IMG/VR virus record: IMGVR_UViG_3300049046_000039 | Coordinates: 51,802 to 115,801 of that record | Direction: 5' to 3' (one strand) | DNA length: 64,000 nt | Source: a virus | Shown here: piece by piece, positions 2,407-34,191 of the stretch | How the letters are laid out: each line of letters opens with the position of its first letter | How positions within the stretch are numbered: position 1 is the stretch's first letter | The notes under the pieces: generated by a model | Databases searched by the model: none | What the model was told of the DNA's origin: nothing | Seen by the model: the letters and a program-made list of their open reading frames with translations, nothing else | Position numbers and translations under genes: made by a program

Positions 2407-2436
2407 TAGTATATACTCTTTTCTTGGAAATGTCAA
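2407..2436 (-). promoter_or_regulatory. sigma70-like early promoter; similar copies near 6.2, 9.1, 10.6, 12.55, 34.2, 37.0, 45.5, 47.2, 48.1, 50.1, 50.2, 52.2, 52.4 and 56.2 kb
   Basis: TTGACA-N17-TATACT; recurring TTGACATT...TATAAT/TATATT motif on minus strand. Confidence 0.75.
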
Positions 2437-3590
2437 ACAATAATGTGAGGAACGAATTTTGCAGTATTGCTAGTAATGAGGCCGTCCTCACGAATGCCCA
2501 TACCTACTGCAGCACCGTCGACCGACCAGACGCCGAGTACGGGATACTTACCACTGAACTCAGGAAGAGAGTAGCGCTCTTGATAGACGTAGCCGTCAGA
2601 ACCGTACTCGCCACCGGTCGCGCTAAGAGTCTTACCGAACTGGTCCTTGACAAGGATGTTCGAACCTTCGCGAGCCAGAATAGGCTTCGAGACGTATCCG
2701 CTGGAGAAGTCACGATTGTTGACCGGAACTTCGAAGCTTGCGGCAAGGAGGTTCTTATGATTTGGGAACATCTTCCACAGAATCGGAAGAATCGCCTTGT
2801 TAGACCAGATCATCTTCCAGACAGGTTCGATCCACGTGGTGATGTCGGCTGAAGCGAGAATGTTGTTAGCGAACTTCTCGTTGACCATCCACTCCCAAGG
2901 ATAGAGATGCTGAATCGTCGACATATGGTAATTGTCGAGATCAACGAAAGCTTCGCCATCCCAACCGATGTCGTTGATCAGAATACCGTGACTGATGATG
3001 CCGGCTTCTTCTGCCATATCTCGCATGTAGGAGACATTGACGGCATCTTCACCGGCACCATCGTCGGCGTGAGTAAACCAGACGTGCTTCTCAGGAAGCA
3101 GAGGAGCGATGTACTTCCAGCGCTCGACGATAGCTTCGTGAATGCCATTGAACTGATCCACGCCCTCGCCGAACATGTCGTTCTTCCAGTGCCATTGGAC
3201 TACCGAAGCTTCGAGAAGACTGGTCGGAGTGTCGCAGTTGAACTCGAACATCTTGGGGTCGGTGCGACCGTCATAACCAAAGTCGAAGCGACCGTAGTTA
3301 AGAGCCGGTGGCTCGCTATCCCAAGTGTCGATAATGTACTGGTGGAAGTGAGGAGGAATCCCAAACTGGTTGAGGATGTGGTAGTTAGAGACGATATAGT
3401 CTCCAGCTACAATCATCATCTTGTAGCAGTTGTTAGCCGCTTCCTCAATTCTCTCGATGTCTGAAGACGAGAATGCGTAGTATGCGTCCTCGTTCCAGTA
3501 AGGTTCGGCCGAAGCACTGTGCCAGAGAAGACCCTGACCCTCGACGATCGCCTTCCAATTGTGGCGAGGAGTTGAAGAGTGACGCAGCAT
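2433..3590 (-). CDS. glutathionylspermidine synthase-like ATP-grasp protein (YgiC family)
   Basis: YGRFDF, EFNCDTPTSLLEAS, YPWEW, EPxWK, SNKAILP, KPILAREG motifs. Confidence 0.93.
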   Translation of the reverse strand: MLRHSSTPRHNWKAIVEGQGLLWHSASAEPYWNEDAYYAFSSSDIERIEEAANNCYKMMIVAGDYIVSNYHILNQFGIPPHFHQYIIDTWDSEPPALNYGRFDFGYDGRTDPKMFEFNCDTPTSLLEASVVQWHWKNDMFGEGVDQFNGIHEAIVERWKYIAPLLPEKHVWFTHADDGAGEDAVNVSYMRDMAEEAGIISHGILINDIGWDGEAFVDLDNYHMSTIQHLYPWEWMVNEKFANNILASADITTWIEPVWKMIWSNKAILPILWKMFPNHKNLLAASFEVPVNNRDFSSGYVSKPILAREGSNILVKDQFGKTLSATGGEYGSDGYVYQERYSLPEFSGKYPVLGVWSVDGAAVGMGIREDGLITSNTAKFVPHIIV

Positions 3591-3967
3591 TACGAAGACG
3601 CCGAACCGTACGAGCTGGCCGAAGAGCCGAAGCCGCCGCGCTGGACGGTGCTGTTGCTCTTGGTGTAGCTGGTAGAGGAAGGCTTGTTGTATGTGCCATA
3701 GCTGCGAGGAATGGTAGAGCCGTACGCAGGAACTCGCTGGCCATTGTTCATGAAGAACATGCCGTAGTATCCGCCGCCACCACCCGAAGAACCACGGCAG
3801 TAGCTGTCAGCTACACGCTTGTTAGTGCGCTTGTCGACACATGCGGCGTTGCGACGCTTATCGTCATCATCGTCGTCGTAGTAGTCCGTACGAGGCTGAC
3901 CACATCCAGCAACGGTCACTGCGAGAGCGGTAGCGACCGCCGTGGTAATATTCAGAGTCTTCTTCAT
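3590..3967 (-). CDS. YgiB/DUF1190-like lipoprotein
   Basis: lipobox VAGC; Ser/Gly-rich C-terminus RGGFGSS; coupled to YgiC-like gene. Confidence 0.75.
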   Translation of the reverse strand: MKKTLNITTAVATALAVTVAGCGQPRTDYYDDDDDDKRRNAACVDKRTNKRVADSYCRGSSGGGGGYYGMFFMNNGQRVPAYGSTIPRSYGTYNKPSSTSYTKSNSTVQRGGFGSSASSYGSASS

Positions 3968-4022
3968 AATATCTCCTATTGTGGAGTGGCGATTACTACC
4001 ACCACTCCCATTTAGAATTCAC

Positions 4023-4706
4023 TTAGTACTGGTCGAACTTAAGCAAATTATATCCTCTTAGCAAGCCGCGCTTATGTTCTTCCAGAGGATATACTCCAAT
4101 CGAAGTCTTTTGATTTCCGATGTCCGGTTCTCTAAACACTACGTATGGAACTTTCATGCTCCCCAGAACTTTCTCTACTTCTTCGAGCTCGTACGCGTTA
4201 CGTACTCCGCAGCAAGTAAAGTGTAAGCCCTTAACGAGTTCTGGAGACTTTTGAGCGATGAGTGCGCCAAGTTCGAGAGCAGCGTGAGACGTCTGAACCA
4301 GCTGATACTCGTCGAAGATGTCTTGACGAGTGAAGAAGTAGGAGTACCTCCTGATCAGGAGCGCTCTATTTACGCTTAATCTAAGCGCGTGAAGCTCGGC
4401 GTGCTCTTCTTCGGTCAGAACTTCAGCAGCGTTTTGACCTAGAACAAAGTTCTTCAGACCAATGAGCATGCCGTTGTAGTTGTTGGTGATTGCGTCGAAT
4501 GGAACTCTACCGTTCGCCAGCTTGGACACCTTACTGACCGGAGGAAATGCTCGACGGAGAAGGTGAATGGCGATGTCTCTCTTATCGTCGAGAGATTCTG
4601 CACGGGAGTTGATAGCCTTTAGAAGACAGTAGTCGATCATGTCTCGCGTAGTGTTCTTCTTTTGAGAGGCGAGAGTCTTCCAGGCGGTTTTGTAATCAAA
4701 GTTCAT
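4023..4706 (-). CDS. protein with C-terminal peptidyl-tRNA hydrolase 2 (Pth2)-like domain
   Basis: QLVQTSHAALE ... VVFREPDIGNQKTSIGVYP; start moved to ATG 4706 behind AAGGA and a TTTACA-N17-TATATT promoter. Confidence 0.7.
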   Translation of the reverse strand: MNFDYKTAWKTLASQKKNTTRDMIDYCLLKAINSRAESLDDKRDIAIHLLRRAFPPVSKVSKLANGRVPFDAITNNYNGMLIGLKNFVLGQNAAEVLTEEEHAELHALRLSVNRALLIRRYSYFFTRQDIFDEYQLVQTSHAALELGALIAQKSPELVKGLHFTCCGVRNAYELEEVEKVLGSMKVPYVVFREPDIGNQKTSIGVYPLEEHKRGLLRGYNLLKFDQY

Positions 4707-4777
4707 TATTGAATTCCTTAATCTTGAGTAATATAACACGTAATAAAACAAATGTAAATAACATTTTTACGGTAAGA

Positions 4778-4807
4778 TTAAGGCGGGCCGGTTGAGTTCT
4801 AACGCAT
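4778..4807 (-). CDS. amber-containing mini-ORF M-R-(TAG)-N-S-T-G-P-P
   Basis: ATG CGT TAG AAC TCA ACC GGC CCG CCT TAA; AGGAG SD; ATG overlaps upstream TAA. Confidence 0.6.
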
Positions 4808-5058
4808 TACTCTTCTCCTGATATTGTTGCGACACCGTCAACAATTTCTACCGAGCACTTCTTGAGCTTGATAGAGCCTTTGGTGTGTGAGTTGTCTGGA
4901 GTTTCTTTTGTAGAGAAGCCGATGTTACAGTCGACATGGTCTACGTAAAACGTCTGCCCTTTTAGTTTAAGAACCCACATGGGAATCTTAGGATCGGCTA
5001 GGTGACCCTTATTGAAGTGAAATACTACTTCTTTACAGTTCTAAAAAGTCTGCTTCAT
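4807..5058 (-). CDS. 83-aa phage protein with in-frame TAG at codon 6 (MKQTF*NCKEVVFHFNKGHL...KETPDNSHTKGSIK...)
   Basis: AAGGA SD; single TAG at 5041-5043, then 77 open codons to TAA; absent from ORF track. Confidence 0.75.
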
Positions 5059-5062
5059 TTTG

Positions 5063-5527
5063 TTATTCCTTAAATTCGCTAGTAACATTTACCAACTCTG
5101 TTGGCAGATAGAATACTTCAAAATCTTCAACTACTCTCCAGTATTCGCCGTCAGCCCACGATCCTACTAGTTCTGTTACAGCATCGCGAAGAATGTCTTC
5201 TACGTACTTAGAGTCTTCCTCAGAAAGAATGTGATAGTCGAATTCTTTTGGAACTGACACGTTATTCTGGTTATATGAGTCTACAATCTTCTTAAGATCT
5301 GGAACAAGCTCCGAGTCATTTTCACGACCCTCGTAGTCGCTATGTCTATCGACATTTCCATACTTACCACCATCGTAAGTCGACCTAAACATAAGAGCGA
5401 CGTCGACGTAGAACTTAACATGGTCTACTTCCAGACCAGTGAATTCTTTAGTCATGTAGTTGTCGGCGTCATTTTCCCAAGTGGTCAGCTTAAGAATGTA
5501 TCCAGGCTTAATGTTTGTCATAATCAC
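5063..5527 (-). CDS. hypothetical protein
   Basis: 154-aa ORF with SD, in operon. Confidence 0.75.
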   Translation of the reverse strand: MIMTNIKPGYILKLTTWENDADNYMTKEFTGLEVDHVKFYVDVALMFRSTYDGGKYGNVDRHSDYEGRENDSELVPDLKKIVDSYNQNNVSVPKEFDYHILSEEDSKYVEDILRDAVTELVGSWADGEYWRVVEDFEVFYLPTELVNVTSEFKE

Positions 5528-5535
5528 CTTAGTAA

Positions 5536-5612
5536 TGGTGCGCGTGACGGGACTCGAACCCGTGACGTCATGATTTTAGAGATCACCGCTCTTCCAACTG
5601 AGCTACACGCAC
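5536..5612 (-). tRNA. amber suppressor tRNA(CUA)
   Basis: GTGCGTG TA GCTC AGTTGGAA GAGC G GTGAT CTCTAAA ATCAT GACGTC ACGGG TTCGAGT CCCGT CACGCGC A CCA. Confidence 0.92.
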
Positions 5613-5851
5613 ATATTGTTTCTTATGTATGATGCTACCGAACTTGGCGTCATCACGTTTACAGAACATTCATCGTCTGGATATCGGAACTCCGAAGTTT
5701 CGAGTTCTACCGCGTCCACTAACTTCTTAGTGCCAGTCTCTGAGTTTACTATCTCGACGTAAGAGCTACCACGATAGTAGTAATAGTCAGTGCCGTCGAC
5801 GTTAATCGTTCTAGCACCCTTGCGCTTATTTGTCTTGCTCGGTTTACTCAT
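5603..5851 (-). CDS. hypothetical protein (MSKPSK...)
   Basis: GAGG SD before ATG 5851; TAG stop lies in the 5' end of the suppressor tRNA. Confidence 0.65.
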   Translation of the reverse strand: MSKPSKTNKRKGARTINVDGTDYYYYRGSSYVEIVNSETGTKKLVDAVELETSEFRYPDDECSVNVMTPSSVASYIRNNMCV

Positions 5852-5867
5852 GACTGCCTCTTTAATA

Positions 5868-5960
5868 GCGGGTTGCCGTGTTTTCCACCATTGGAAAACG
5901 CCTGTTTTGGCGGCGTTTATTGGAATCGAACCAATTAGTACGGTTTGCTGTAAGCAACCC
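5868..5960 (-). ncRNA. CAGCAA-scaffold RNA 1, permuted tRNA-like (T-acceptor-D)
   Basis: GGGTTGC/GCAACCC stem, TTA CAGCAA, TTCGATT T-loop, AAACGCC GCCA..GGCGTTT. Confidence 0.75.
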
Positions 5961-5968
5961 ATTTTTTT

Positions 5969-6077
5969 ACAGGATCAACTTGGTTTGTTGCCTTTACCGT
6001 TTGGCTATTCGTCGAAGTCGACAAAATGGGAATCGAACCCATAATACACAAATTGTGTGATTTGCTGAACTGATCCT
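5969..6077 (-). ncRNA. CAGCAA-scaffold RNA 2, permuted tRNA-like
   Basis: AGGATCA/TGATCCT stem, CAGCAA, T-arm, closed acceptor hairpin, D-arm. Confidence 0.78.
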
Positions 6078-6085
6078 AAATTAGT

Positions 6086-6183
6086 ACAGGCTTCAGATTT
6101 AGGTGGGAATCGAACCCACACAGATCGATTAGAAGTCGATTGCTCTACCTTTGAGCTACTGAAAGGTTTGCTGTAAGAAGCCT
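6086..6183 (-). ncRNA. CAGCAA-scaffold RNA 3 carrying D, anticodon (UCU) and T arms
   Basis: AGGCTTC/GAAGCCT stem, CAGCAA, ATCGA CTTCTAA TCGAT; no CCA. Confidence 0.78.
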
Positions 6184-6234
6184 TATAACCTAATTATATA
6201 ACTTTTGTCTAAGAATGTCAACTAGTTTTTTGCG

Positions 6235-6738
6235 TTAGCTAGTCGGCAGCTTAAGAGATTTTAGAGCAGCGATGCTCAGCGAGTTCTCGATCTTAAAGAT
6301 TCGATTGAGCTGAAGCGTAGAGCGTCTCCAGTGTGGAACCTTAAAGCTCTCGTACTCGTCCTTAATCTTTGATATGAAGTCTTGGCGAGCTACACCAGCA
6401 GCTCGATACTTATCCATCGCTTCTTTGTATTCTGGAGTTCCGGCCGGTGCCAGAGCCGCGTAGTCGGCCCACTTAGGATAGGCGTAGTCTTTAATGCGCT
6501 TATCGCTGTAGTAGTTCGGCACTTCAATACCAGTCTCGACGTGACGCCACTTAGTAGTGGGTTCGTACATCATTACTGTTACTGACTTACTGGTTCCAGT
6601 GGTAACAAATCCAGCGTAGACTGCAACTCTGGTATTGACATTGTGAGCGTATCCAGTGGTTACTGCTAGAACTTCTTCACCGACGTTAATAGTCTGCCCG
6701 ATACTGTTAGTAAAGGGTTCACGAATTAACTTCTTCAT
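6235..6738 (-). CDS. hypothetical protein
   Basis: 167-aa ORF with AGGA SD. Confidence 0.75.
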   Translation of the reverse strand: MKKLIREPFTNSIGQTINVGEEVLAVTTGYAHNVNTRVAVYAGFVTTGTSKSVTVMMYEPTTKWRHVETGIEVPNYYSDKRIKDYAYPKWADYAALAPAGTPEYKEAMDKYRAAGVARQDFISKIKDEYESFKVPHWRRSTLQLNRIFKIENSLSIAALKSLKLPTS

Positions 6739-6754
6739 AATGATCCTATTGTTA

Positions 6755-6883
6755 GCAGGCTAGCTTTTGTGCTTTACGCGCTCTATCCAGCTGAGCTACT
6801 CTCCCGCATGGTGGGAGAGGTGGGATTCGAACCACACGACCTCGTCCTTCTAATGGAATGCAATGAGTTGCTGAAACTAACCT
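6755..6883 (-). ncRNA. CAGCAA-scaffold RNA 4, permuted tRNA-like with internal ACCA
   Basis: AGGTTAG/CTAGCCT stem; CTCTCCC ACCA TGC GGGAGAG; canonical D-arm after it. Confidence 0.78.
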
Positions 6884-6890
6884 AAAGTTA

Positions 6891-7017
6891 ACAGATTCGC
6901 TTTTTTATCTAACGTGCTACTATTACACCACACCCCGATAGATGGCCGGGGTGCCAGGAATTGCACCTGGACCTTTCCTTTAACAGAGGAATGATAGAGA
7001 GTTGCTGAAACGAATCT
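6891..7017 (-). ncRNA. CAGCAA-scaffold RNA 5, permuted tRNA-Asn-like with internal GCCA
   Basis: AGATTCG/CGAATCT stem; TTCCT CTGTTAA AGGAA; T-arm; CACCCCG GCCA TCTAT CGGGGTG; D-arm. Confidence 0.78.
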
Positions 7018-7020
7018 AAA

Positions 7021-7140
7021 TCACAGTGACCAGACGTCGGCGTCGTCTAAGCCGTCATCGTAGCCTTTTCGGTTTGTTGGATCGATAGCTGCGGCCAGAA
7101 CTATGAGGCCGAAAGAAACCAAGATAATGGTAGCAATCAT
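7021..7140 (-). CDS. 39-aa membrane protein
   Basis: GGAGG SD; MIATIILVSFGLIVLAAA hydrophobic N-terminus. Confidence 0.5.
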   Translation of the reverse strand: MIATIILVSFGLIVLAAAIDPTNRKGYDDGLDDADVWSL

Positions 7141-7144
7141 ACTA

Positions 7145-7309
7145 TTAACCCTCCAAAACTCGTGTTAGCACTATAAGTGCAGCGTTGAACTGCTTTCCCT
7201 TATTGTGTCGAATATCGTGAGCGAACCAAGGTTTGCCCTCGGCGTCGTATTGATCAGCCAGGAGGTTTCGTGCCTCCTGGCTGATCAGAGATGACTTACC
7301 TGAAGTCAT
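7145..7309 (-). CDS. 54-aa hypothetical protein
   Basis: ATG overlaps the end of the DUF2828 gene; contains a 15-bp hairpin at 7251-7287. Confidence 0.4.
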   Translation of the reverse strand: MTSGKSSLISQEARNLLADQYDAEGKPWFAHDIRHNKGKQFNAALIVLTRVLEG

Positions 7310-8747
7310 ACTTAGACTGCATGACAGTCTTACGCATGATACCTTCGGGAGTCATGTCGTCGTAGTTAGCGCCGAGAACGGCCTTCATGATCGCTGGCGA
7401 GAAGCCAGAGACGAGGGCAGTTCCAGTCTCGTCGAATGAAACCGGCACGTTACCGTGAGAGTTGAGGTTCCAGAAGACTACTGCCGGAGCTTCGTAACCA
7501 GCACGACGGTACTCGTTACGGATCATCTCGATTGCTCGAGGGTCGTGAGCTTTCGCGCTAGAGCTCCAGCCGCCGCCACCAGTGCCTACGCACTGGTTGA
7601 ACTGCATGTCAGACATGATTAGGAGCATCGTTGGCATTTCTGCCGCAGGCACCTTACCCTTGACTGCAGTATCGAGGATGCGATGGAGCGCCTTCTCGAG
7701 GTCGGTAGACATGTTCCAAGACGATCTCGCCATGGCGTTGTATCGCTGAGACAGCGTACCCTTGACGGTCACGAACTCAGGCTCACTGGAGAAGGTAAGG
7801 AACATGTCCTTGAACTTACCAGTGTTCTTGCTCGCGCAATAGAGACCTAGAGAGATCGCTACGTCGAGACAGGTGACATCCACGCCCTTCGTACCACCGC
7901 CGGCGCGGCAGCCCATAGAACCTGAAACGTCTACCAGAGGCAGAACGTTAGCGTCGCCGATAAAGTTAGGTAGAGCGTCCCACTGAGCGTTAGCCACGGT
8001 AGAGTCACCGTATCTCACGGTCTTGATGATGTCGTAAGGGTATACGGCACCAGCGTTGACCTTGACACCCTTGTCGCCACGCTTGAGAGCTTCCTTGTAT
8101 GCAGTGAACTGCGTAGGAGCCTTCTTAGCGAAAGCCTTGGTGTAGCGAGACATAGCCAGAGAAGGAACGTGGTTGAAGTTGATAGCTTCAAACTCACGGT
8201 TACACATCTGAGTCTCGACAACTCTCGTGAGGTTCACGAGCAGCTTGCGGTACTGCTTTGGAGACATTGCCATGAAGTTGCGCAGCTCTACAGCCTTAGC
8301 GCCCTTACGTGGCATCCACTTAGCGGCCAGACCATTACCGTTCTGGAGGTTCTCCTGAATGAGAGAGAACGCTACAGACTTCACTTCCTCGGTGTTGAAC
8401 ACGAGAAGGTCGTCGAAGCGGCCCAGATCAGGAACACGCGACAGAAGGTTAGTCTTGGTGAGGTAGTCAGGGTTGACTTTCTCGAGATGGAGAAGGATGT
8501 CGCGGAAGAGCTTACGCTCACCGGCGCCGCCGCGGATGTCGCGAGCCCAGAGGGCGATACGGATAGCCAGTTCGCTGTCTTCTACCAGCGCCTTGTTGAA
8601 GAGGCCGGTAACGTCCTTGCCACGCATAGCGCCGATCTGACCAAAGAGGTCTACGTTGGCGCGCATGGTTGACTTGTATGCAGCCATGCCATTCGTGGTC
8701 TTGGTTTTTACAGGAGTGTTGTTTACTGCATTCGCAAAAGTATTCAT
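7296..8747 (-). CDS. DUF2828-type Ro60/TROVE-like vWA protein
   Basis: TTNG, RDIRGGAGER, GRFDDL, LAAKWMPR, HVPSLAM, MIDAS DVSGSM, SDMQF, FWNL, LVSGFSP. Confidence 0.85.
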   Translation of the reverse strand: MNTFANAVNNTPVKTKTTNGMAAYKSTMRANVDLFGQIGAMRGKDVTGLFNKALVEDSELAIRIALWARDIRGGAGERKLFRDILLHLEKVNPDYLTKTNLLSRVPDLGRFDDLLVFNTEEVKSVAFSLIQENLQNGNGLAAKWMPRKGAKAVELRNFMAMSPKQYRKLLVNLTRVVETQMCNREFEAINFNHVPSLAMSRYTKAFAKKAPTQFTAYKEALKRGDKGVKVNAGAVYPYDIIKTVRYGDSTVANAQWDALPNFIGDANVLPLVDVSGSMGCRAGGGTKGVDVTCLDVAISLGLYCASKNTGKFKDMFLTFSSEPEFVTVKGTLSQRYNAMARSSWNMSTDLEKALHRILDTAVKGKVPAAEMPTMLLIMSDMQFNQCVGTGGGGWSSSAKAHDPRAIEMIRNEYRRAGYEAPAVVFWNLNSHGNVPVSFDETGTALVSGFSPAIMKAVLGANYDDMTPEGIMRKTVMQSKYDFR

Positions 8748-8765
8748 GTTGTATTCTCCTAATTC

Positions 8766-8821
8766 ACGGGCTCAGTTTGGTTTGCTGTTTTCCGAAAGCT
8801 ATGAGTTGCGGAATTGAGCCC
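8766..8821 (-). ncRNA. CAGCAA-scaffold RNA 6 (minimal, CCGCAA variant)
   Basis: GGGCTCA/TGAGCCC stem + GT tail, directly upstream of DUF2828 RBS. Confidence 0.65.
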
Positions 8822-8828
8822 TAATAAA

Positions 8829-9015
8829 ACGGGATGCGCGGCTTGCTTACTGCCTGCTGAACTAGCCACACGTCGCAGTGACCTCGATCTCTTATTCGGA
8901 GGAGCACCTACACCGTTTATGCTCATGAAACGGTACAATTGGGACGGCGGCCGAAGCCCCGCCGATCGCTAGAAGACCTCGTTAGAGGCCGGTCAGTTTT
9001 TGCTGAAGTCATCCC
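8829..9015 (-). ncRNA. CAGCAA-scaffold RNA 7 (long, multi-hairpin cargo)
   Basis: GGGATG/CATCCC stem, CAGCAA, GT tail. Confidence 0.65.
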
Positions 9016-20291: not shown

Positions 20292-21020
20292 TTATTTCCA
20301 GAACTGCCACCATGATTTTTTTTCACCAATGTTATCGATAGTGCTTAGCTTATCGACTGCAACTCTTCCGGTAGAACTTATCTTAGACTCTAGCGAAGGA
20401 TGTGGAGAAGGAAACTCTCTGTTTTCAGTAGTAGACGTCGCTTCAATTATGCCTACGACCATTCCCTTGTCGTCGATAAGAGGACACATGACAGACTGAA
20501 TGACTTTGTATCTCTTTAGATACGCTTCGTACATTTCGTCTGGAATGTCATCGACTGCAAATCGCACGCACTTAGGTTCTACACCCTTTGGTACGATGAA
20601 CATTCTGTTAAGAGTTTGAGACATCGTAGACACTGGATAGCTCATCCACGACTCTTGGTCGGTAAGACCTTGGCCTGGAGCTGATACAGCATACGTCGTC
20701 TGAATGAACATAAATGGAATGCCAGTTATACCTTTACGTCCGTTGTGAAATTGACGTATCAGTATGCGATCAGCCTTGATGTCATTTCTTAGAACTTCGA
20801 GTCTGTTCGGTATCTCTTCGTTGAGTTGAACCACGCGAAGAAAGCGCTCTTGCTCTAGAGCAGGCGAGTCGGGTGGATTCGAGAGAATATTATTGTTGTC
20901 TATAGTAATATAGAGAAGAAGACACGTTATGATGATGATTACGAATGCTAGAGGCGACTTGAGCCAGGCTTCGTGTAGGGTAGCAAAAAGTTCTTTAACA
21001 GCGTTGATGATATCAGCCAT
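20292..21020 (-). CDS. single-TM protein with GAF-like periplasmic domain (holin T-like candidate)
   Basis: N-terminal TM; ADRILIRQFHNG. Confidence 0.45.
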   Translation of the reverse strand: MADIINAVKELFATLHEAWLKSPLAFVIIIITCLLLYITIDNNNILSNPPDSPALEQERFLRVVQLNEEIPNRLEVLRNDIKADRILIRQFHNGRKGITGIPFMFIQTTYAVSAPGQGLTDQESWMSYPVSTMSQTLNRMFIVPKGVEPKCVRFAVDDIPDEMYEAYLKRYKVIQSVMCPLIDDKGMVVGIIEATSTTENREFPSPHPSLESKISSTGRVAVDKLSTIDNIGEKKSWWQFWK

Positions 21021-28811: not shown

Positions 28812-28981
28812 TTTACTACCGTGAGGTGAGGTGTCTTAACTTCGTTCATCTGCTCGTAGATAGACACGGCCTCGTCGTAACCCTCCCAGTTGTCGACTCC
28901 GGCATGCTCCAGAGCACCGAGCCACGCGGCCGACTCTAGAAGTTCTTCATACTCGCTTAAGCTAATAGTTACCGTTGACAT
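28808..28981 (-). CDS. small conserved phage protein
   Basis: LEHAGVDNWEGYDEA. Confidence 0.7.
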   Translation of the reverse strand: MSTVTISLSEYEELLESAAWLGALEHAGVDNWEGYDEAVSIYEQMNEVKTPHLTVVK

Positions 28982-30042
28982 ACGAATCTCATGTTGTGAA
29001 AGTTGCGCCGACTGAACTCCATTCGGTCGACTAGTTTGGTCGGAATGCCGTGATAGGTCACGACGTAACCCTCGCCAGCAGTGGTGTCTCCCGAGCACTC
29101 GTGGTAGAACGGAAGACCGTCGTTCATCACCATCATCATGGTGCGCTTGACGTAGTCTAGAGTGTACCTGCTCTGAAGAGCGTACTTGATAGTGAGAGTC
29201 TCGGACGACCTGATCTGATCCTCCTCGCCCTTTATCTCGACGAAGCGCCTGTACATGGTGGTGTTGGGATTGTGCTCGCCGATGCGAATGCAGTAGTTGG
29301 TGAACTGCTTTAGAAGAGCGCAGTGAGAGTTGAGTATCGGCGCTTCCAGAACTTTCTGCATCTTCTCGGCGCCGACCAAGCAGCTGCTGATGACGCTGTG
29401 CTGAGCTGGATTAAGTGCGAACTTCGACACGTCGTATGCGGTATCGATCCAGTACACTTCTGTCGACTTGAACTGACTCACGTCGGGACTTCCGATAGAC
29501 TTCATCTCTCGAAGAACCGGGCCGTAGTACTGAGTGTGAAGAGCTATACCGATAGTAGAGCGACACAGCGCTTCGTACTGCTCAGTCCCCTTCACTGCGC
29601 CGTAAGTGATCGTGTTAGGCGTGAACAGTATCATGCTTCCGACGTTGACCATCAGGTCAGGATGATACATGAAGTCGCCCTGATAGACTCCTGGCGGAAT
29701 TAGTCCCTTGTCGAAGTCTCGCTTGATTATGCCGATGGCCAACCAAAGCTTAATGGCGTAGTCTTCTCTGTCGCCGTAGTACTTCTGCACGTCGTTCTCG
29801 TCGTAGCAGATGATGGGTCTCAGCTTATTGAAGACCGACTTAGTGCCGACGAAGAACTTGCCGTTCTCAGGATTGACTCCAAAGACAATAGCCGGAGCAC
29901 CGTCGTACTTGACGCTAACCTTAAGATACTTTTGCGGCTTACCCGAAAGCGCGTCCTTAAGAGACTCTAGGACGTCTATGCTCTGATAGATGTGTCCGGT
30001 GTAGACGTAATCGTCTACGTGTTCAAGATGCTTTATTAACAT
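28969..30042 (-). CDS. conserved T4-like protein (DUF6267-like)
   Basis: HLEH, KYDGAPAIVFG, FFVGTKSVFN, QGD, EGYV, KLVDR.EFS..NF. Confidence 0.75.
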   Translation of the reverse strand: MLIKHLEHVDDYVYTGHIYQSIDVLESLKDALSGKPQKYLKVSVKYDGAPAIVFGVNPENGKFFVGTKSVFNKLRPIICYDENDVQKYYGDREDYAIKLWLAIGIIKRDFDKGLIPPGVYQGDFMYHPDLMVNVGSMILFTPNTITYGAVKGTEQYEALCRSTIGIALHTQYYGPVLREMKSIGSPDVSQFKSTEVYWIDTAYDVSKFALNPAQHSVISSCLVGAEKMQKVLEAPILNSHCALLKQFTNYCIRIGEHNPNTTMYRRFVEIKGEEDQIRSSETLTIKYALQSRYTLDYVKRTMMMVMNDGLPFYHECSGDTTAGEGYVVTYHGIPTKLVDRMEFSRRNFHNMRFVCQR

Positions 30043-30099
30043 AGATACTATACCTTCAAAGCCCAGAGGCATTATATACAAGTTAAGCCGGCGTGTAAA

Positions 30100-30813
30100 C
30101 TATAAAAATGGATTACGCTTCTTAGTATTTGGCAAAACTGAAAATGCGCTATTGGCTACTGACGTAAGCTTTAGTTCGGCTTGAACTTCGTAGAATCTAC
30201 TTCTGTTCGACACACGAACTCGAAACTTACCTGTGCCAGTAAGCTGAGGAATCTCGCTAGACAGTCCCAGTGGATTGGTGTTCGATATCATGAAGAAGTC
30301 GTCGCCTGCCTGCATGTAGTAAGCTGGCTCGGTCTTACCTTGAGTGTAGTGCATCGTGACCAGATCGCTTAGATCGTAGTCCTTGTGATCTAGAATGTAC
30401 GCTCCGTTCTCTCGACAGAACTTGCGCATGACGTCGCGTGGAACGGCATTATCCGTGTCCATCTCACCGCGATTTGTTGGTATGTATATCGTCTCGAAGG
30501 CTAGACCGCAATAGTCTGAGATTGAGTAAACAAACTCTAGAGAAACTTGCGACTTATTTAATTCTTGGACAATGTTACCCGCAATAGGAGTGCTATACCT
30601 TGTTTTCCATGCTTTCTCGTGAAAGTAAACCCTTGGATTAGCAAGGTTATCTGAATGGTTCATCTTCACTTCTAGCCAACTAGACCTGTTATTAAAATTG
30701 ACTAGCACGTCAGAATAGTCAGTTCCGACCTTAGGTCTTACTGCACTAACGTGGTGCATCGAGTCTAGATGCTCGGCGATAATGCGTTCGTGTTTATCTG
30801 AAGCTTTGCTCAT
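30100..30813 (-). CDS. PD-(D/E)XK-like nuclease
   Basis: E...YSDV...WLEVK. Confidence 0.55.
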   Translation of the reverse strand: MSKASDKHERIIAEHLDSMHHVSAVRPKVGTDYSDVLVNFNNRSSWLEVKMNHSDNLANPRVYFHEKAWKTRYSTPIAGNIVQELNKSQVSLEFVYSISDYCGLAFETIYIPTNRGEMDTDNAVPRDVMRKFCRENGAYILDHKDYDLSDLVTMHYTQGKTEPAYYMQAGDDFFMISNTNPLGLSSEIPQLTGTGKFRVRVSNRSRFYEVQAELKLTSVANSAFSVLPNTKKRNPFL

Positions 30814-33027: not shown

Positions 33028-34191
33028 TTAAGCTTCGTCTCTTCTAGCTAGGACACCACCCATAGAGTCTGGGCCGCCTGGCCAGTATTCGTGCGAGGAC
33101 GAGCCGGTCATGCTCTCGACTTCCTCGTCGGCAAGAACACCTGATAGATCTAGTTCTTCGTCGGCTAGAAGCTTAGCCTGTGGCAGACGATACTTTGTCT
33201 CGAGGTACTTGGCGAAGTCGGTGTCGAGAAGGATCTTACCCCATACTTCGTTGGATGTAGCTATCTCGGCTTCACGGTAGCTCTTACCGATCAGCTCTCC
33301 AGTAGAGCGATCTACGATCTGATACCAGCCCGCCTTTGGCTTAGCTACGTATCCGCCTTCGAGCGCGTTCTCGAGGAAGCCAGACCACTTGTTAATGCCG
33401 CCGTTATAGAGAACGTGGATAGGAATCTTGGCCTTCTCCTTAACGTAGCGTGACTTCTCGACGTTAAGGATGAATTCGTAACCTTGGATTTCTGTTCCAG
33501 CCTTATCCTGTCTACGACCGATAATGAAGATGTTATCTGCCGAGTAGTAGATGCCAGTACCGCCAGAGACTACGGCCTTGGAGAACATTTCCTGAGTCTG
33601 ATAAGTGTGGTTGACCACGATCATCGGAATGTTCTTAAGAGTGAGATGTGGTGTGACCATACGGAACAGCGACTTAAGCTGTCTAGCTCTGGTCATGTCC
33701 GCGACAGACTTACCGTCGATAGCGTCTTCAACTTCCTTCTTAGAAGCTAGGTTACCGACAGAGTCGATCATGATAAGAACGTGGTCCTTACGCTGCAGCT
33801 GATCTAGCTGCTGCATAATGTCGAACTTTAGCTCTTCGATGTTGGTGATTGGAGTGTGTACGACCTTCTCTGGATCGACGTTAAGAGAAGCGAAGTAAGA
33901 GTCCGGTGAGCCAAACTCAGAGTCGTAGAACAGAATGATGCCGTCGCTATACTTCTCGAGGAATGCCGAAGCGGCAAGTAGCGTAAAGCCAGTCTTAAAG
34001 TGCTTAGACGGACCAGCAAAGATGGTAAGACCAGAAGTAATACCACCGTCAGCGAGACCACTGAAAGCGACGTTAATCATCGGGACTCGAGTCTGGACAA
34101 CGTCTTTGTTGTTGTAGATTTCCGACTCGCTGAGTACGGAAGTAGCTTTGATAGTAGAGTTTTTAATGAGTCTAGAACGTAGATCTGACAT
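33028..34191 (-). CDS. uvsX: UvsX RecA-like recombinase
   Basis: AGPSKHFKT, YDSEFG, DMTRA, SGGTG. Confidence 0.97.
   Translation of the reverse strand: MSDLRSRLIKNSTIKATSVLSESEIYNNKDVVQTRVPMINVAFSGLADGGITSGLTIFAGPSKHFKTGFTLLAASAFLEKYSDGIILFYDSEFGSPDSYFASLNVDPEKVVHTPITNIEELKFDIMQQLDQLQRKDHVLIMIDSVGNLASKKEVEDAIDGKSVADMTRARQLKSLFRMVTPHLTLKNIPMIVVNHTYQTQEMFSKAVVSGGTGIYYSADNIFIIGRRQDKAGTEIQGYEFILNVEKSRYVKEKAKIPIHVLYNGGINKWSGFLENALEGGYVAKPKAGWYQIVDRSTGELIGKSYREAEIATSNEVWGKILLDTDFAKYLETKYRLPQAKLLADEELDLSGVLADEEVESMTGSSSHEYWPGGPDSMGGVLARRDEA

What the first reader, a model, noticed from the sequence alone, without database searches (positions are those of the whole stretch)
4023..5612. Candidate amber-gated translation module: tRNA(CUA), two TAG-interrupted ORFs and Pth2-like hydrolase
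Seen: within 1.6 kb on one strand lie a complete amber suppressor tRNA, an 83-codon gene with TAG at codon 6, a coupled 9-codon ORF with TAG at codon 3 ending Gly-Pro-Pro-stop, and a Pth2-like gene. Both TAGs have the same context, TAG-AAC-T. Long genes in the window contain no internal TAG, so this is local programmed readthrough, not genome recoding. Inference: expression depends on competition between RF1 and the phage suppressor, acting as a timer or a sensor of termination or tRNA state, with Pth2 clearing peptidyl-tRNAs from the minigenes.
Basis: partly seen in the sequence, partly recalled or inferred. Interest (0 to 1): 0.92.

Follow-up and report, generated by a model that had tools for sequence, protein, structure and literature searches.

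The report
Suppressor-tRNA-gated phage gene module
A large phage that otherwise uses the normal genetic code carries its own UAG-reading tRNA next to one small gene and one tiny leader peptide that each contain an early UAG stop, so that this gene and a neighbouring peptidyl-tRNA-hydrolase-like gene are probably made only when the tRNA overrides the stop; I found no published description of such a natural switch.

Summary
The tRNA(CUA) at 5536-5612(-) is a normal elongator-type tRNA. The 83-codon gene (4807-5058) has UAG at codon 6. In 84 of 87 distinct relatives the same family carries TAG, never TAA or TGA, 7-11 codons before its invariant motif. 63 of those loci have a same-strand tRNA(CUA) within 4 kb.

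The 9-codon ORF (4778-4807) is a conserved leader. Its peptide after the UAG is kept through synonymous changes. Its Pro-Pro-stop end is complementary to the Shine-Dalgarno site of the next gene, with compensatory changes across 8 loci.

That next gene (4023-4706) has a Pth2-fold C-terminal domain (Z 13.8). In one relative with an ochre tRNA(UUA), both gating stops are TAA and the leader ends in TAG.

The genome itself is not recoded. My reading is a suppression-dependent switch with two outputs. The biological purpose and the amino acid inserted at UAG are unknown. This scan has reported the same kind of module on other DNA. I found no paper describing it.

The parts
6193..6221 (-). Consensus sigma-70-like promoter (TTGACA-17-TATAAT) that could drive the tRNA-like RNAs, the tRNA(CUA) and the genes downstream
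   Evidence: 12 of 12 hexamer matches. A pattern match only; function not shown.
5536..5612 (-). tRNA with anticodon CUA (amber suppressor), CCA encoded
   Evidence: 59.2 bits. Nearest paralogue in the window is tRNA-Arg(UCU), 79% identity. Homologous CUA tRNAs lie beside the target genes in 57 of 83 loci.
5063..5521 (-). 152-aa ORF between the tRNA and the gated gene (phrog_2290, unknown function). Not a conserved member of the module.
   Evidence: E 6e-22. No homologue in the related loci.
4807..5058 (-). 83-codon gene of the 'FHFNK...PMWV' family with UAG at codon 6 (5041-5043); SD AAGGAA at 5066-5071
   Evidence: AlphaFold pLDDT 90, with strand 1 spanning residues 3-15.
4778..4807 (-). Leader ORF M-R-UAG-N-S-T-G-P-P-UAA (UAG at 4799-4801), overlapping the upstream stop as TAATG, with AGGAG SD
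4774..4783 (-). Anti-SD segment CCUUAAUCUU: last Pro codon, leader stop and 4 nt
   Evidence: (duplex -12.5 kcal/mol, reached by 0 of 200 shuffles)
4730..4758 (-). Promoter-like TTTACA-17-TATATT (with TG) inside the loop of the anti-SD:SD helix. Transcripts starting here would lack the anti-SD.
   Evidence: Similar -35/-10 pairs are readable in the same place in L004, L143, L144 and L145 (sequences printed).
4716..4725 (-). SD region AAGAUUAAGG of the Pth2-like gene, the partner of the anti-SD
4023..4706 (-). 227-aa protein: helical N-terminal domain of unknown fold plus a Pth2-fold C-terminal domain (residues 117-222)

Best explanation
This is a self-contained amber-suppression switch with two outputs.

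The phage tRNA(CUA) competes with host RF1 at two early UAG codons placed just downstream of it on the same strand.

Output 1. The 83-codon gene starts at a strong SD-AUG, meets UAG at codon 6, and yields a foldable protein only if the UAG is read. The residues after the UAG form the first beta-strand and the invariant FHFNK motif. No other start codon is available before Met27.

Output 2. The 9-codon leader meets UAG at codon 3.
- If RF1 wins, the ribosome leaves about 18 nt before the anti-SD. The 10-bp anti-SD:SD helix stays closed and the Pth2-like gene is not translated from read-through transcripts.
- If the tRNA wins, the ribosome runs to Pro-Pro-UAA. That is a poor termination context (my recollection of Hayes, Bose and Sauer 2002). 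The ribosome then sits on the anti-SD and frees the SD.

Shown: the sequence anatomy, its conservation, covariation in the helix, and the stop codon following the anticodon.

Inferred: that the tRNA is charged and active, that the ribosome pauses at Pro-Pro-stop, and all biology.

My best guess for purpose: both proteins act on the suppressor's own business, namely tRNA ends, peptidyl-tRNA or read-through level. They would therefore be licensed by, or feed back on, suppression.
For: - Family-wide TAG. 84 of 87 distinct loci have TAG, never TAA or TGA, 7-11 codons before the motif, after SD + ATG + 1-5 codons.
- Linkage. 63 of those 84 have a same-strand tRNA(CUA) within 4 kb. It is often the only tRNA in the locus and ends 24-50 nt upstream.
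- Cultured relative. Rhizobium phage RHph_I1_18 has TAG at the same codon 6, an adjacent tRNA(cta), and leaves the gene unannotated.
- The stretch after the UAG is coding. F13, H14, F15, N16, K17, H19 and L20 are invariant or nearly so in 47 sequences, and strand 1 covers residues 3-15.
- Leader conserved. S-T-G-P-P is kept in WIN, L146 and L216 with only third-position changes. TAG-first mini-ORFs ending PP-stop number 20 of 1298 on the gene strand, against 0 of 1588 TAA-first and 2 of 1158 TGA-first. The leader precedes 8 of 12 two-domain genes.
- Helix. 87.5% of cells are paired against 10-48% when slid, with 3 compensatory pairs, including UAA/UUA changing to UGA/UCA.
- Ochre relative L232. 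tRNA(UUA), the gene gated by TAA, and the leader M-T-TAA-I-F-K-P-P-TAG.
- Terminal stops. 15 amber leaders end in TAA or TGA, never TAG.
- A second gated family. 41 of 117 Pth2-like genes are gated by TAG, 1 by TAA and 0 by TGA.
Against: - Nothing is experimental. Expression, charging and the inserted amino acid are unknown.
- 18 ordinary ORFs of the phage end in TAG, and presumably many host genes do too, so a strong suppressor should have costs.
- A promoter-like site lies inside the helix loop. Transcripts from it would escape the leader control.
- The fold of the leader region is not better than shuffles overall (z -0.75). The case rests on the specific helix and its covariation in only 8 sequences.
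- A few family members lack the TAG but keep the tRNA nearby (L070, L140).
- In about half of the relatives TAG is followed by ATT, a weak start codon.
Confidence: 0.7

Rival explanations
1. Start-stop mini-ORF with re-initiation. The ATG-(1-5 codons)-TAG unit is a tiny upstream ORF. The ribosome terminates there and re-initiates at an adjacent non-canonical codon, so the tRNA is not needed.
For: TAG is followed by ATT in 44 of 83 family members. Some members have an ATG or GTG a few codons after the TAG (for example L063, whose database protein P0035 starts at that ATG).
Against: - Re-initiation would work with any stop, yet the stop is TAG in 84 of 84 gated family loci and 41 of 42 gated Pth2-like genes.
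- The one TAA case has a tRNA(UUA).
- In this window the codon after TAG is AAC, and there is no start codon before Met27.
- The leader peptide after the UAG is conserved at amino-acid level.
Confidence: 0.07
2. The tRNA(CUA) exists mainly for another purpose, and the gated genes merely borrow it as a timing cue. Such purposes could be read-through of host or phage TAG-terminated genes, a decoy or replacement in a tRNA-directed host defence, or a remnant of a code-15 ancestry.
For: - TAG-ended ORFs of the genome have longer in-frame extensions than TAA- or TGA-ended ones (median 24.5 codons against 6-9; n = 18).
- The module lies beside tRNA-like and Y-RNA-like elements.
- Suppressor tRNAs are common in recoded phages (PMC11210395).
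Against: - The tRNA is often the only tRNA in the locus and directly abuts the gated gene or leader, 17-50 nt away, on the same strand.
- True TAG terminators are followed by T or C in 13 of 18 cases, whereas gated TAGs are followed by A in 70 of 83. This suggests ordinary stops are kept hard to suppress.
- This rival is compatible with gating. It differs only on which function is primary.
Confidence: 0.15
3. The phage uses genetic code 15 (TAG as a sense codon) throughout or in a block, and the two TAGs are ordinary sense codons.
For: Presence of a tRNA(CUA). Some database proteins of this family were translated with Q at the TAG, for example P0026, which equals L023.
Against: - Table-11 ORFs cover 91% of the contig.
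- 18 of 178 ORFs end in TAG.
- No long gene has an internal TAG. The 614-codon open frame at 28969-30813 is two adjacent genes.
- Only one direct UAG gene and one UAG leader occur in 115.8 kb.
Confidence: 0.03
4. The TAGs are assembly errors, private mutations or pseudogene lesions.
For: None beyond the bare presence of stops. Read mapping could not be done.
Against: The same TAG placement recurs in about 80 independent assemblies and in a cultured phage genome. Purifying selection is evident on both sides of it.
Confidence: 0.01

Closest known systems
Stop-codon-recoded phages with phage-encoded Sup-CTA tRNAs (code 15: crAss-like, Lak and others; PMC9523058, PMC11210395, PMC7886860)
   Same: A phage-encoded tRNA(CUA) lets ribosomes read UAG in phage genes inside a standard-code host. 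It has been proposed there as a way to time gene expression.
   Different: - Here the genome is standard-code.
- UAG occurs once in one small gene and once in one leader, always within the first 2-10 codons.
- The tRNA is physically coupled to its targets.
- Structural and lysis genes are not involved.
Leader-peptide translational attenuators (ermC, cat/cmlA, secM-secA type)
   Same: A short upstream ORF whose ribosome, when held at a defined site, melts a helix that sequesters the SD of the downstream gene.
   Different: Here the input would be whether a UAG at codon 3 is suppressed, not a drug, an amino acid or secretion. The holding site would be Pro-Pro-stop, whose codons are themselves the anti-SD.
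prfB (RF2) autoregulation through an early in-frame UGA
   Same: An early in-frame stop codon makes synthesis of a translation-related protein depend on how efficiently that stop is recognised.
   Different: - prfB uses +1 frameshifting and the product is the release factor itself.
- Here the escape is by a dedicated tRNA.
- Whether the products act back on suppression is unknown.
Lambda bar minigenes and Pth dependence
   Same: In the OFF state the units are SD-AUG-1 to 5 codons-stop minigenes. A peptidyl-tRNA-hydrolase-fold gene is linked.
   Different: bar minigenes end in UAA and are not read through. No evidence here of toxicity or drop-off. The hydrolase is Pth2-fold, not bacterial Pth1.
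Suppressor tRNAs of jumbo phages with no known target (XacN1: two CUA tRNAs; Atu_ph07: one UCA tRNA)
   Same: Large standard-code phages with a large tRNA set, a suppressor tRNA and Pth genes.
   Different: The XacN1 authors extended annotated TAG-terminated genes and found no targets (PMC5852040). Here the targets are at the N-termini of unannotated or mis-started genes.

Membership tests
Amber suppressor tRNA | Canonical elongator cloverleaf | tested here: met
   ARAGORN. Rfam RF00005 59.2 bits against 29. G18G19, T-loop and encoded CCA read.
Amber suppressor tRNA | 7-nt anticodon loop with U33-C34-U35-A36-A37 | tested here: met
   Loop CU-CUA-AA. The same loop occurs in 39 distinct homologous-context tRNAs.
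Amber suppressor tRNA | Is aminoacylated and inserts an amino acid at UAG | not testable with these tools
   Identity unclear. The nearest paralogue is tRNA-Arg(UCU) at 79%, with A73 and A20. TAG-less homologues have D, E, M or I at or near the position.
Code-15 recoded phage | In-frame TAG in many genes, typically late or structural ones | tested here: not met
Pth2 (Pfam PF01981) | Reaches the Pfam gathering score | tested here: not met
   13.5 bits against 23. 11 of 46 family members hit PTH2, all below threshold.
Pth2 (Pfam PF01981) | Pth2 alpha/beta fold | tested here: met
   Residues 117-222 against 1wn2: Z 13.8, rmsd 2.2 A, 106 aligned. The next unrelated match is Z 5.1. Foldseek 2zv3, 3erj, 1xty and 1q7s: E 2e-6 to 1e-4.
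Pth2 (Pfam PF01981) | Catalytic residues and peptidyl-tRNA hydrolase activity | tested here: inconclusive
   R-x-D-[LI] and Q-x-x-H-A are shared with the canonical-looking L002 and L003 genes, but their M..GK segment is absent here. The E-P-D-x-G-N motif is invariant. Activity was not tested.
Leader-peptide translational attenuator | Short translated ORF 50-80 nt upstream of the regulated gene | tested here: met
   Leader with SD, 55-76 nt upstream, in 8 of 12 two-domain genes. The peptide is conserved through synonymous changes.
Leader-peptide translational attenuator | Leader 3' end pairs with the SD of the downstream gene | tested here: met
   10-bp helix in the window. Duplex energies are reached by 0 to 2 of 200 shuffles in the 8 loci where the leader precedes a two-domain gene. 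Covariation count.
Leader-peptide translational attenuator | Ribosome arrest at a defined codon | not testable with these tools
   Pro-Pro-stop is invariant in 15 amber leaders. It could also be kept only because CCN-CCN is the anti-SD.
prfB-type autoregulatory stop | The product controls decoding of its own in-frame stop | not tested
   Function of the 83-aa protein is unknown. No Pfam, PHROG or PDB match.

The most novel reading that the evidence does not exclude
The module is a natural closed-loop read-through controller. The phage tRNA(CUA) switches on, through two early UAGs arranged in series, a Pth2-fold enzyme and a small beta-barrel protein. The two UAGs are linked because the leader is translationally coupled to the gated gene. 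These two proteins in turn act on the suppressor tRNA or its peptidyl or aminoacyl forms. UAG read-through in the infected cell would thus be measured and held at a set level, or locked on: a tRNA-based analogue of RF2 autoregulation.
Probability: 0.2. Interest if true: 0.92.

Novelty: new variant of a known kind. Interest (0 to 1): 0.8.

Why it matters
It gives concrete, testable targets for the suppressor tRNAs that many standard-code large phages carry. One published genome paper looked for such targets and did not find them (PMC5852040).

It shows that gene callers and family databases systematically miss or truncate two widespread phage protein families, because the families begin with a stop codon.

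If the leader works as proposed, it is a natural riboregulator whose input is stop-codon suppression. That is a compact part for genetic-code-expansion circuits, and a window on how phages monitor or reshape host translation termination.

Tried and rejected
- Near-identity DNA search of 4000-9000 in GenBank phages: no match.
- The 83-aa protein has no Pfam or PHROG family. Its model has no significant match in PDB (Foldseek best E 1.1; VIA best Z 3.4, OB-like, not meaningful) or in BFVD beyond a truncated family member.
- The long form of the family (about 185-200 aa) has no consistent Pfam hit and no usable ESM Atlas hit.
- Sequence searches of the 227-aa protein and its profile against PDB found nothing real. 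Only the fold search worked.
- BLASTP of the 227-aa protein against the annotated Phosso Pth: E 0.14.
- Other possible amber-gated genes in the genome were rejected. Genome 33862-34053 and 20794-20961 are overlapped by longer ORFs. Window 28969-30813 is two same-frame genes, the second looking to me (by eye, not searched) like an RNA ligase.
- Whole-region RNA fold z-score is unremarkable.
- tRNA identity by similarity to other phage tRNAs gave no consistent answer across loci.
I therefore could not fetch contigs of TAG-less database proteins. Several of them proved to be code-15 translations or internal-Met calls.
- I did not use complex prediction, because I do not claim that the proteins bind.
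- Five literature searches found no description of the module.
Full report
**What is there**

The window is the right-hand 64 kb of a single 115.8-kb contig with 48% G+C. It belongs to a large phage with 34 ARAGORN-called tRNA genes in the window. Its cultured relatives are only distant jumbo phages. All parts of the finding lie on the minus strand, in this order:
- tRNA(CUA), 5536-5612
- a 152-aa ORF of unknown function (phrog_2290), 5063-5521
- an 83-codon gene, 4807-5058, with TAG at codon 6
- a 9-codon ORF, 4778-4807, with TAG at codon 3
- a 227-aa ORF, 4023-4706

The tRNA is a regular elongator type: Rfam 59.2 bits, loop CU-CUA-AA, CCA encoded. A perfect sigma-70 consensus lies upstream at 6193-6221, and no terminator-like site lies on this strand in between.

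**The genome is not recoded**

With table 11, a greedy non-overlapping ORF set covers 91% of the contig. 18 of 178 ORFs of at least 60 aa end in TAG. I scanned for SD-ATG, a short leader, a stop and then a long open frame. Apart from the 83-codon gene this gave two TAG candidates, and both are overlapped by longer ORFs. The 614-codon frame at 28969-30813 is two adjacent genes in the same frame. Only one TAG mini-ORF ending Pro-Pro-stop exists in the whole contig.

**The UAG in the 83-codon gene is conserved and linked to the tRNA**

tblastn found four GenBank records (three phages; Atu_ph07 is deposited twice).
- In Rhizobium phage RHph_I1_18 the homologue is unannotated. It has a strong SD, ATG, four codons and TAG at codon 6, like the window. 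A tRNA(cta) starts 12 nt after it.
- In Atu_ph07 and Phosso the domain is the C-terminus of a longer protein without TAG. D or E sits at the aligned position.

In IMG/VR, 399 stretches encode relatives. Across the loci fetched with two queries:
- 84 of 87 distinct genes have TAG, never TAA or TGA, 7-11 codons before the FHFNK motif. The TAG is preceded by an SD and ATG plus 1-5 codons.
- 63 of those 84 have a tRNA(CUA) within 4 kb. It is always on the same strand, often the only tRNA in the locus, and often ends 24-50 nt upstream.

The residues between the UAG and Met27 are the most conserved part of the protein: F13, H14, F15, N16, K17, H19, L20. The AlphaFold model (pLDDT 90) puts residues 3-15 in the first strand of a small all-beta domain. 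A Met27-initiated product would lack this strand.

The base after the gated TAG is A in 70 of 83 genes. True TAG terminators of this genome are followed by T or C in 13 of 18. From memory of the classical context studies (Bossi 1983; Miller and Albertini 1983), a 3' purine favours suppression. That is a lead, not a test.

The family has a short form (about 80 aa, as here) and an abundant long form (about 185-200 aa; 405 database proteins). Neither has any Pfam or PHROG family or a solved-structure match.

**The 9-codon ORF is a conserved leader for the next gene**

Its closest relative, L004 (the same contig as L146), has M-L-R-TAG-N-S-T-G-P-P-TGA at the same place, with the same TAATG overlap. 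L216 has M-T-TAG-L-S-T-G-P-P-TGA. The S-T-G-P-P codons differ among the three only at third positions. That points to selection on the peptide after the UAG.

More distant two-domain homologues carry M-R-TAG-F-K-P-P, M-R-TAG-L-K-P-P, M-M-TAG-V-F-K-P-P, M-N-TAG-Q-L-A-Q-P-P and a longer variant. Each lies 55-76 nt before the start codon. In all, 8 of 12 genes with enough upstream sequence have such a leader.

Over all fetched loci, TAG-first mini-ORFs ending PP-stop number 20 of 1298 on the gene strand. The controls are 3 of 864 on the other strand, 0 of 1588 for TAA-first and 2 of 1158 for TGA-first.

**The anti-SD:SD helix**

In the window the last Pro codon, the stop and four more bases (CCUUAAUCUU, 4774-4783) are the exact complement of AAGAUUAAGG (4716-4725). 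That segment contains the SD of the 227-aa gene. The duplex is -12.5 kcal/mol and none of 200 shuffles reaches it. The same arrangement is found in the other seven loci.

On an 8-sequence alignment, 87.5% of cells pair, against 10-48% when the partner is slid. Three pairs have compensatory changes. One of them is the middle base of the stop codon (UAA with UUA, UGA with UCA).

Geometry from the coordinates:
- A ribosome with the final UAA in its A site covers the whole anti-SD.
- A ribosome terminating at the UAG has its A site 18 nt upstream of the anti-SD.

**A caveat on the helix**

A promoter-like TTTACA-17-TATATT lies in the loop. Similar hexamer pairs are readable in the relatives. The leader control would therefore apply only to transcripts that come from upstream.

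**The 227-aa protein**

About 60 full-length homologues exist, none with a Pfam family. The model has pLDDT 92. Residues 117-222 match archaeal and human Pth2 structures:
- Foldseek: E 1.8e-6 to 1e-4, target TM 0.70-0.76
- VIA: Z 13.8 against 1wn2 and 11.4 against 2gax, with the next match at 5.1

Sequence-level membership in PF01981 fails (13.5 against 23 bits; 11 of 46 members hit, all below threshold). The M..GK segment of the canonical-looking Pth2 genes of Atu_ph07 and Phosso is replaced. So the fold is shown and the activity is not. The helical N-terminal domain has no clear match.

**The Pth2-like domain is itself a second stop-gated family**

Among 117 distinct genes from viral and metagenome contigs:
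- 41 begin ATG + 1-8 codons + TAG, with no later canonical start
- 1 begins in the same way with TAA
- none begins with TGA

25 of the 41 have a tRNA(CUA) in the fetched stretch.

The single TAA case, L232, lies about 70 nt after a tRNA(UUA). Its downstream leader reads M-T-TAA-I-F-K-P-P-TAG. So the gating stop follows the anticodon, and the terminal stop is a different one. Conversely, the 15 distinct amber leaders end in TAA (12) or TGA (3), never TAG. For me this natural swap is the strongest single argument that the tRNA reads these stops.

**Synteny**

The order tRNA(CUA), then 0-2 small genes, then the leader, then the two-domain Pth2-like gene, and further on tRNA-Thr(UGU), is shared by the window, L146, L216, L143, L144 and L145. 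In L143 and L182 the leader starts 17-20 nt after the tRNA.

**How it most likely works**

See Best explanation. One added inference: the leader's ATG overlaps the stop of the gated 83-codon gene. Ribosomes arriving by coupling have therefore already passed one UAG, which would make the second output steeper than the first. The early position of the UAGs makes the OFF state cheap, since only a 2- or 5-residue peptide is made. That link is plausible and untested.

**What is known**

The literature I could search describes the following:
- genome-wide or block-wise TAG recoding with Sup-CTA tRNAs
- suppressor tRNAs of unknown purpose in jumbo phages; the XacN1 authors report finding no target

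It does not describe a cis-linked tRNA and N-terminal-stop pair, or a UAG-sensing leader.

**Earlier notes of this scan**

This scan has noted the same kind of module in many other genomes. I re-derived three of those claims here on independent loci: the pairing, the stop following the anticodon, and the stalling leader. I treated the notes as leads only.

**Limits**

- No expression or read data were available.
- The amino acid inserted at UAG is unknown.
- The function of both proteins is unknown.

Noticed in passing
window 5983-7018 (-): tRNA-like elements that ARAGORN does not call. 6095-6165 scores 55 bits as tRNA, with a UCU loop and a flawed acceptor stem. 6772-6845 and 5983-6050 resemble YrlA (Y-RNA-like) below threshold, with a permuted T-arm/acceptor/D-arm layout. 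6812-6937 is a tRNA with a 68-nt insert. Other first-reader notes of this scan describe a Ro60-like gene and an RNA array here.
   Followed up: partly
window 2433-3590 (-): Full-length glutathionylspermidine synthase pre-ATP-grasp protein (Pfam E 2e-130), just downstream of the module.
   Followed up: no
L001 (GenBank MN988519, Rhizobium phage RHph_I1_18) 2980-3228 and 3867-3890: The deposited annotation has no gene at the TAG-interrupted family member next to tRNA(cta). A second amber leader, M-L-TAG-F-K-P-P-TAA, precedes the hypothetical gene at 3956-4339.
   Followed up: partly
L232 2115-2700: Ochre version of the module: tRNA(UUA), a Pth2-like gene with TAA at codon 4, then a leader with TAA at codon 3 that ends in TAG.
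   Followed up: yes
L186, L198, L202, L203, L206, L209: Amber leaders ending [KR]-P-P-stop also precede other, unrelated genes (N-termini rich in K, N, Q, R). The device is therefore not specific to Pth2-like genes.
   Followed up: no
whole contig (genome coordinates): ORFs ending in TAG have longer in-frame extensions to the next stop (median 24.5 codons) than those ending in TGA (6) or TAA (9). With n = 18 this could be chance.
   Followed up: no
window 5603-5612 (-): The 82/119-aa ORF upstream ends with a TAG that lies inside the 5' part of the tRNA(CUA) gene (the U8-A9-G10 region).
   Followed up: no
window 28969-30099 (-): The ORF that follows a TAG-terminated 237-aa ORF in the same frame looks to me like an RNA ligase. 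This is a reading by eye, not searched.
   Followed up: no
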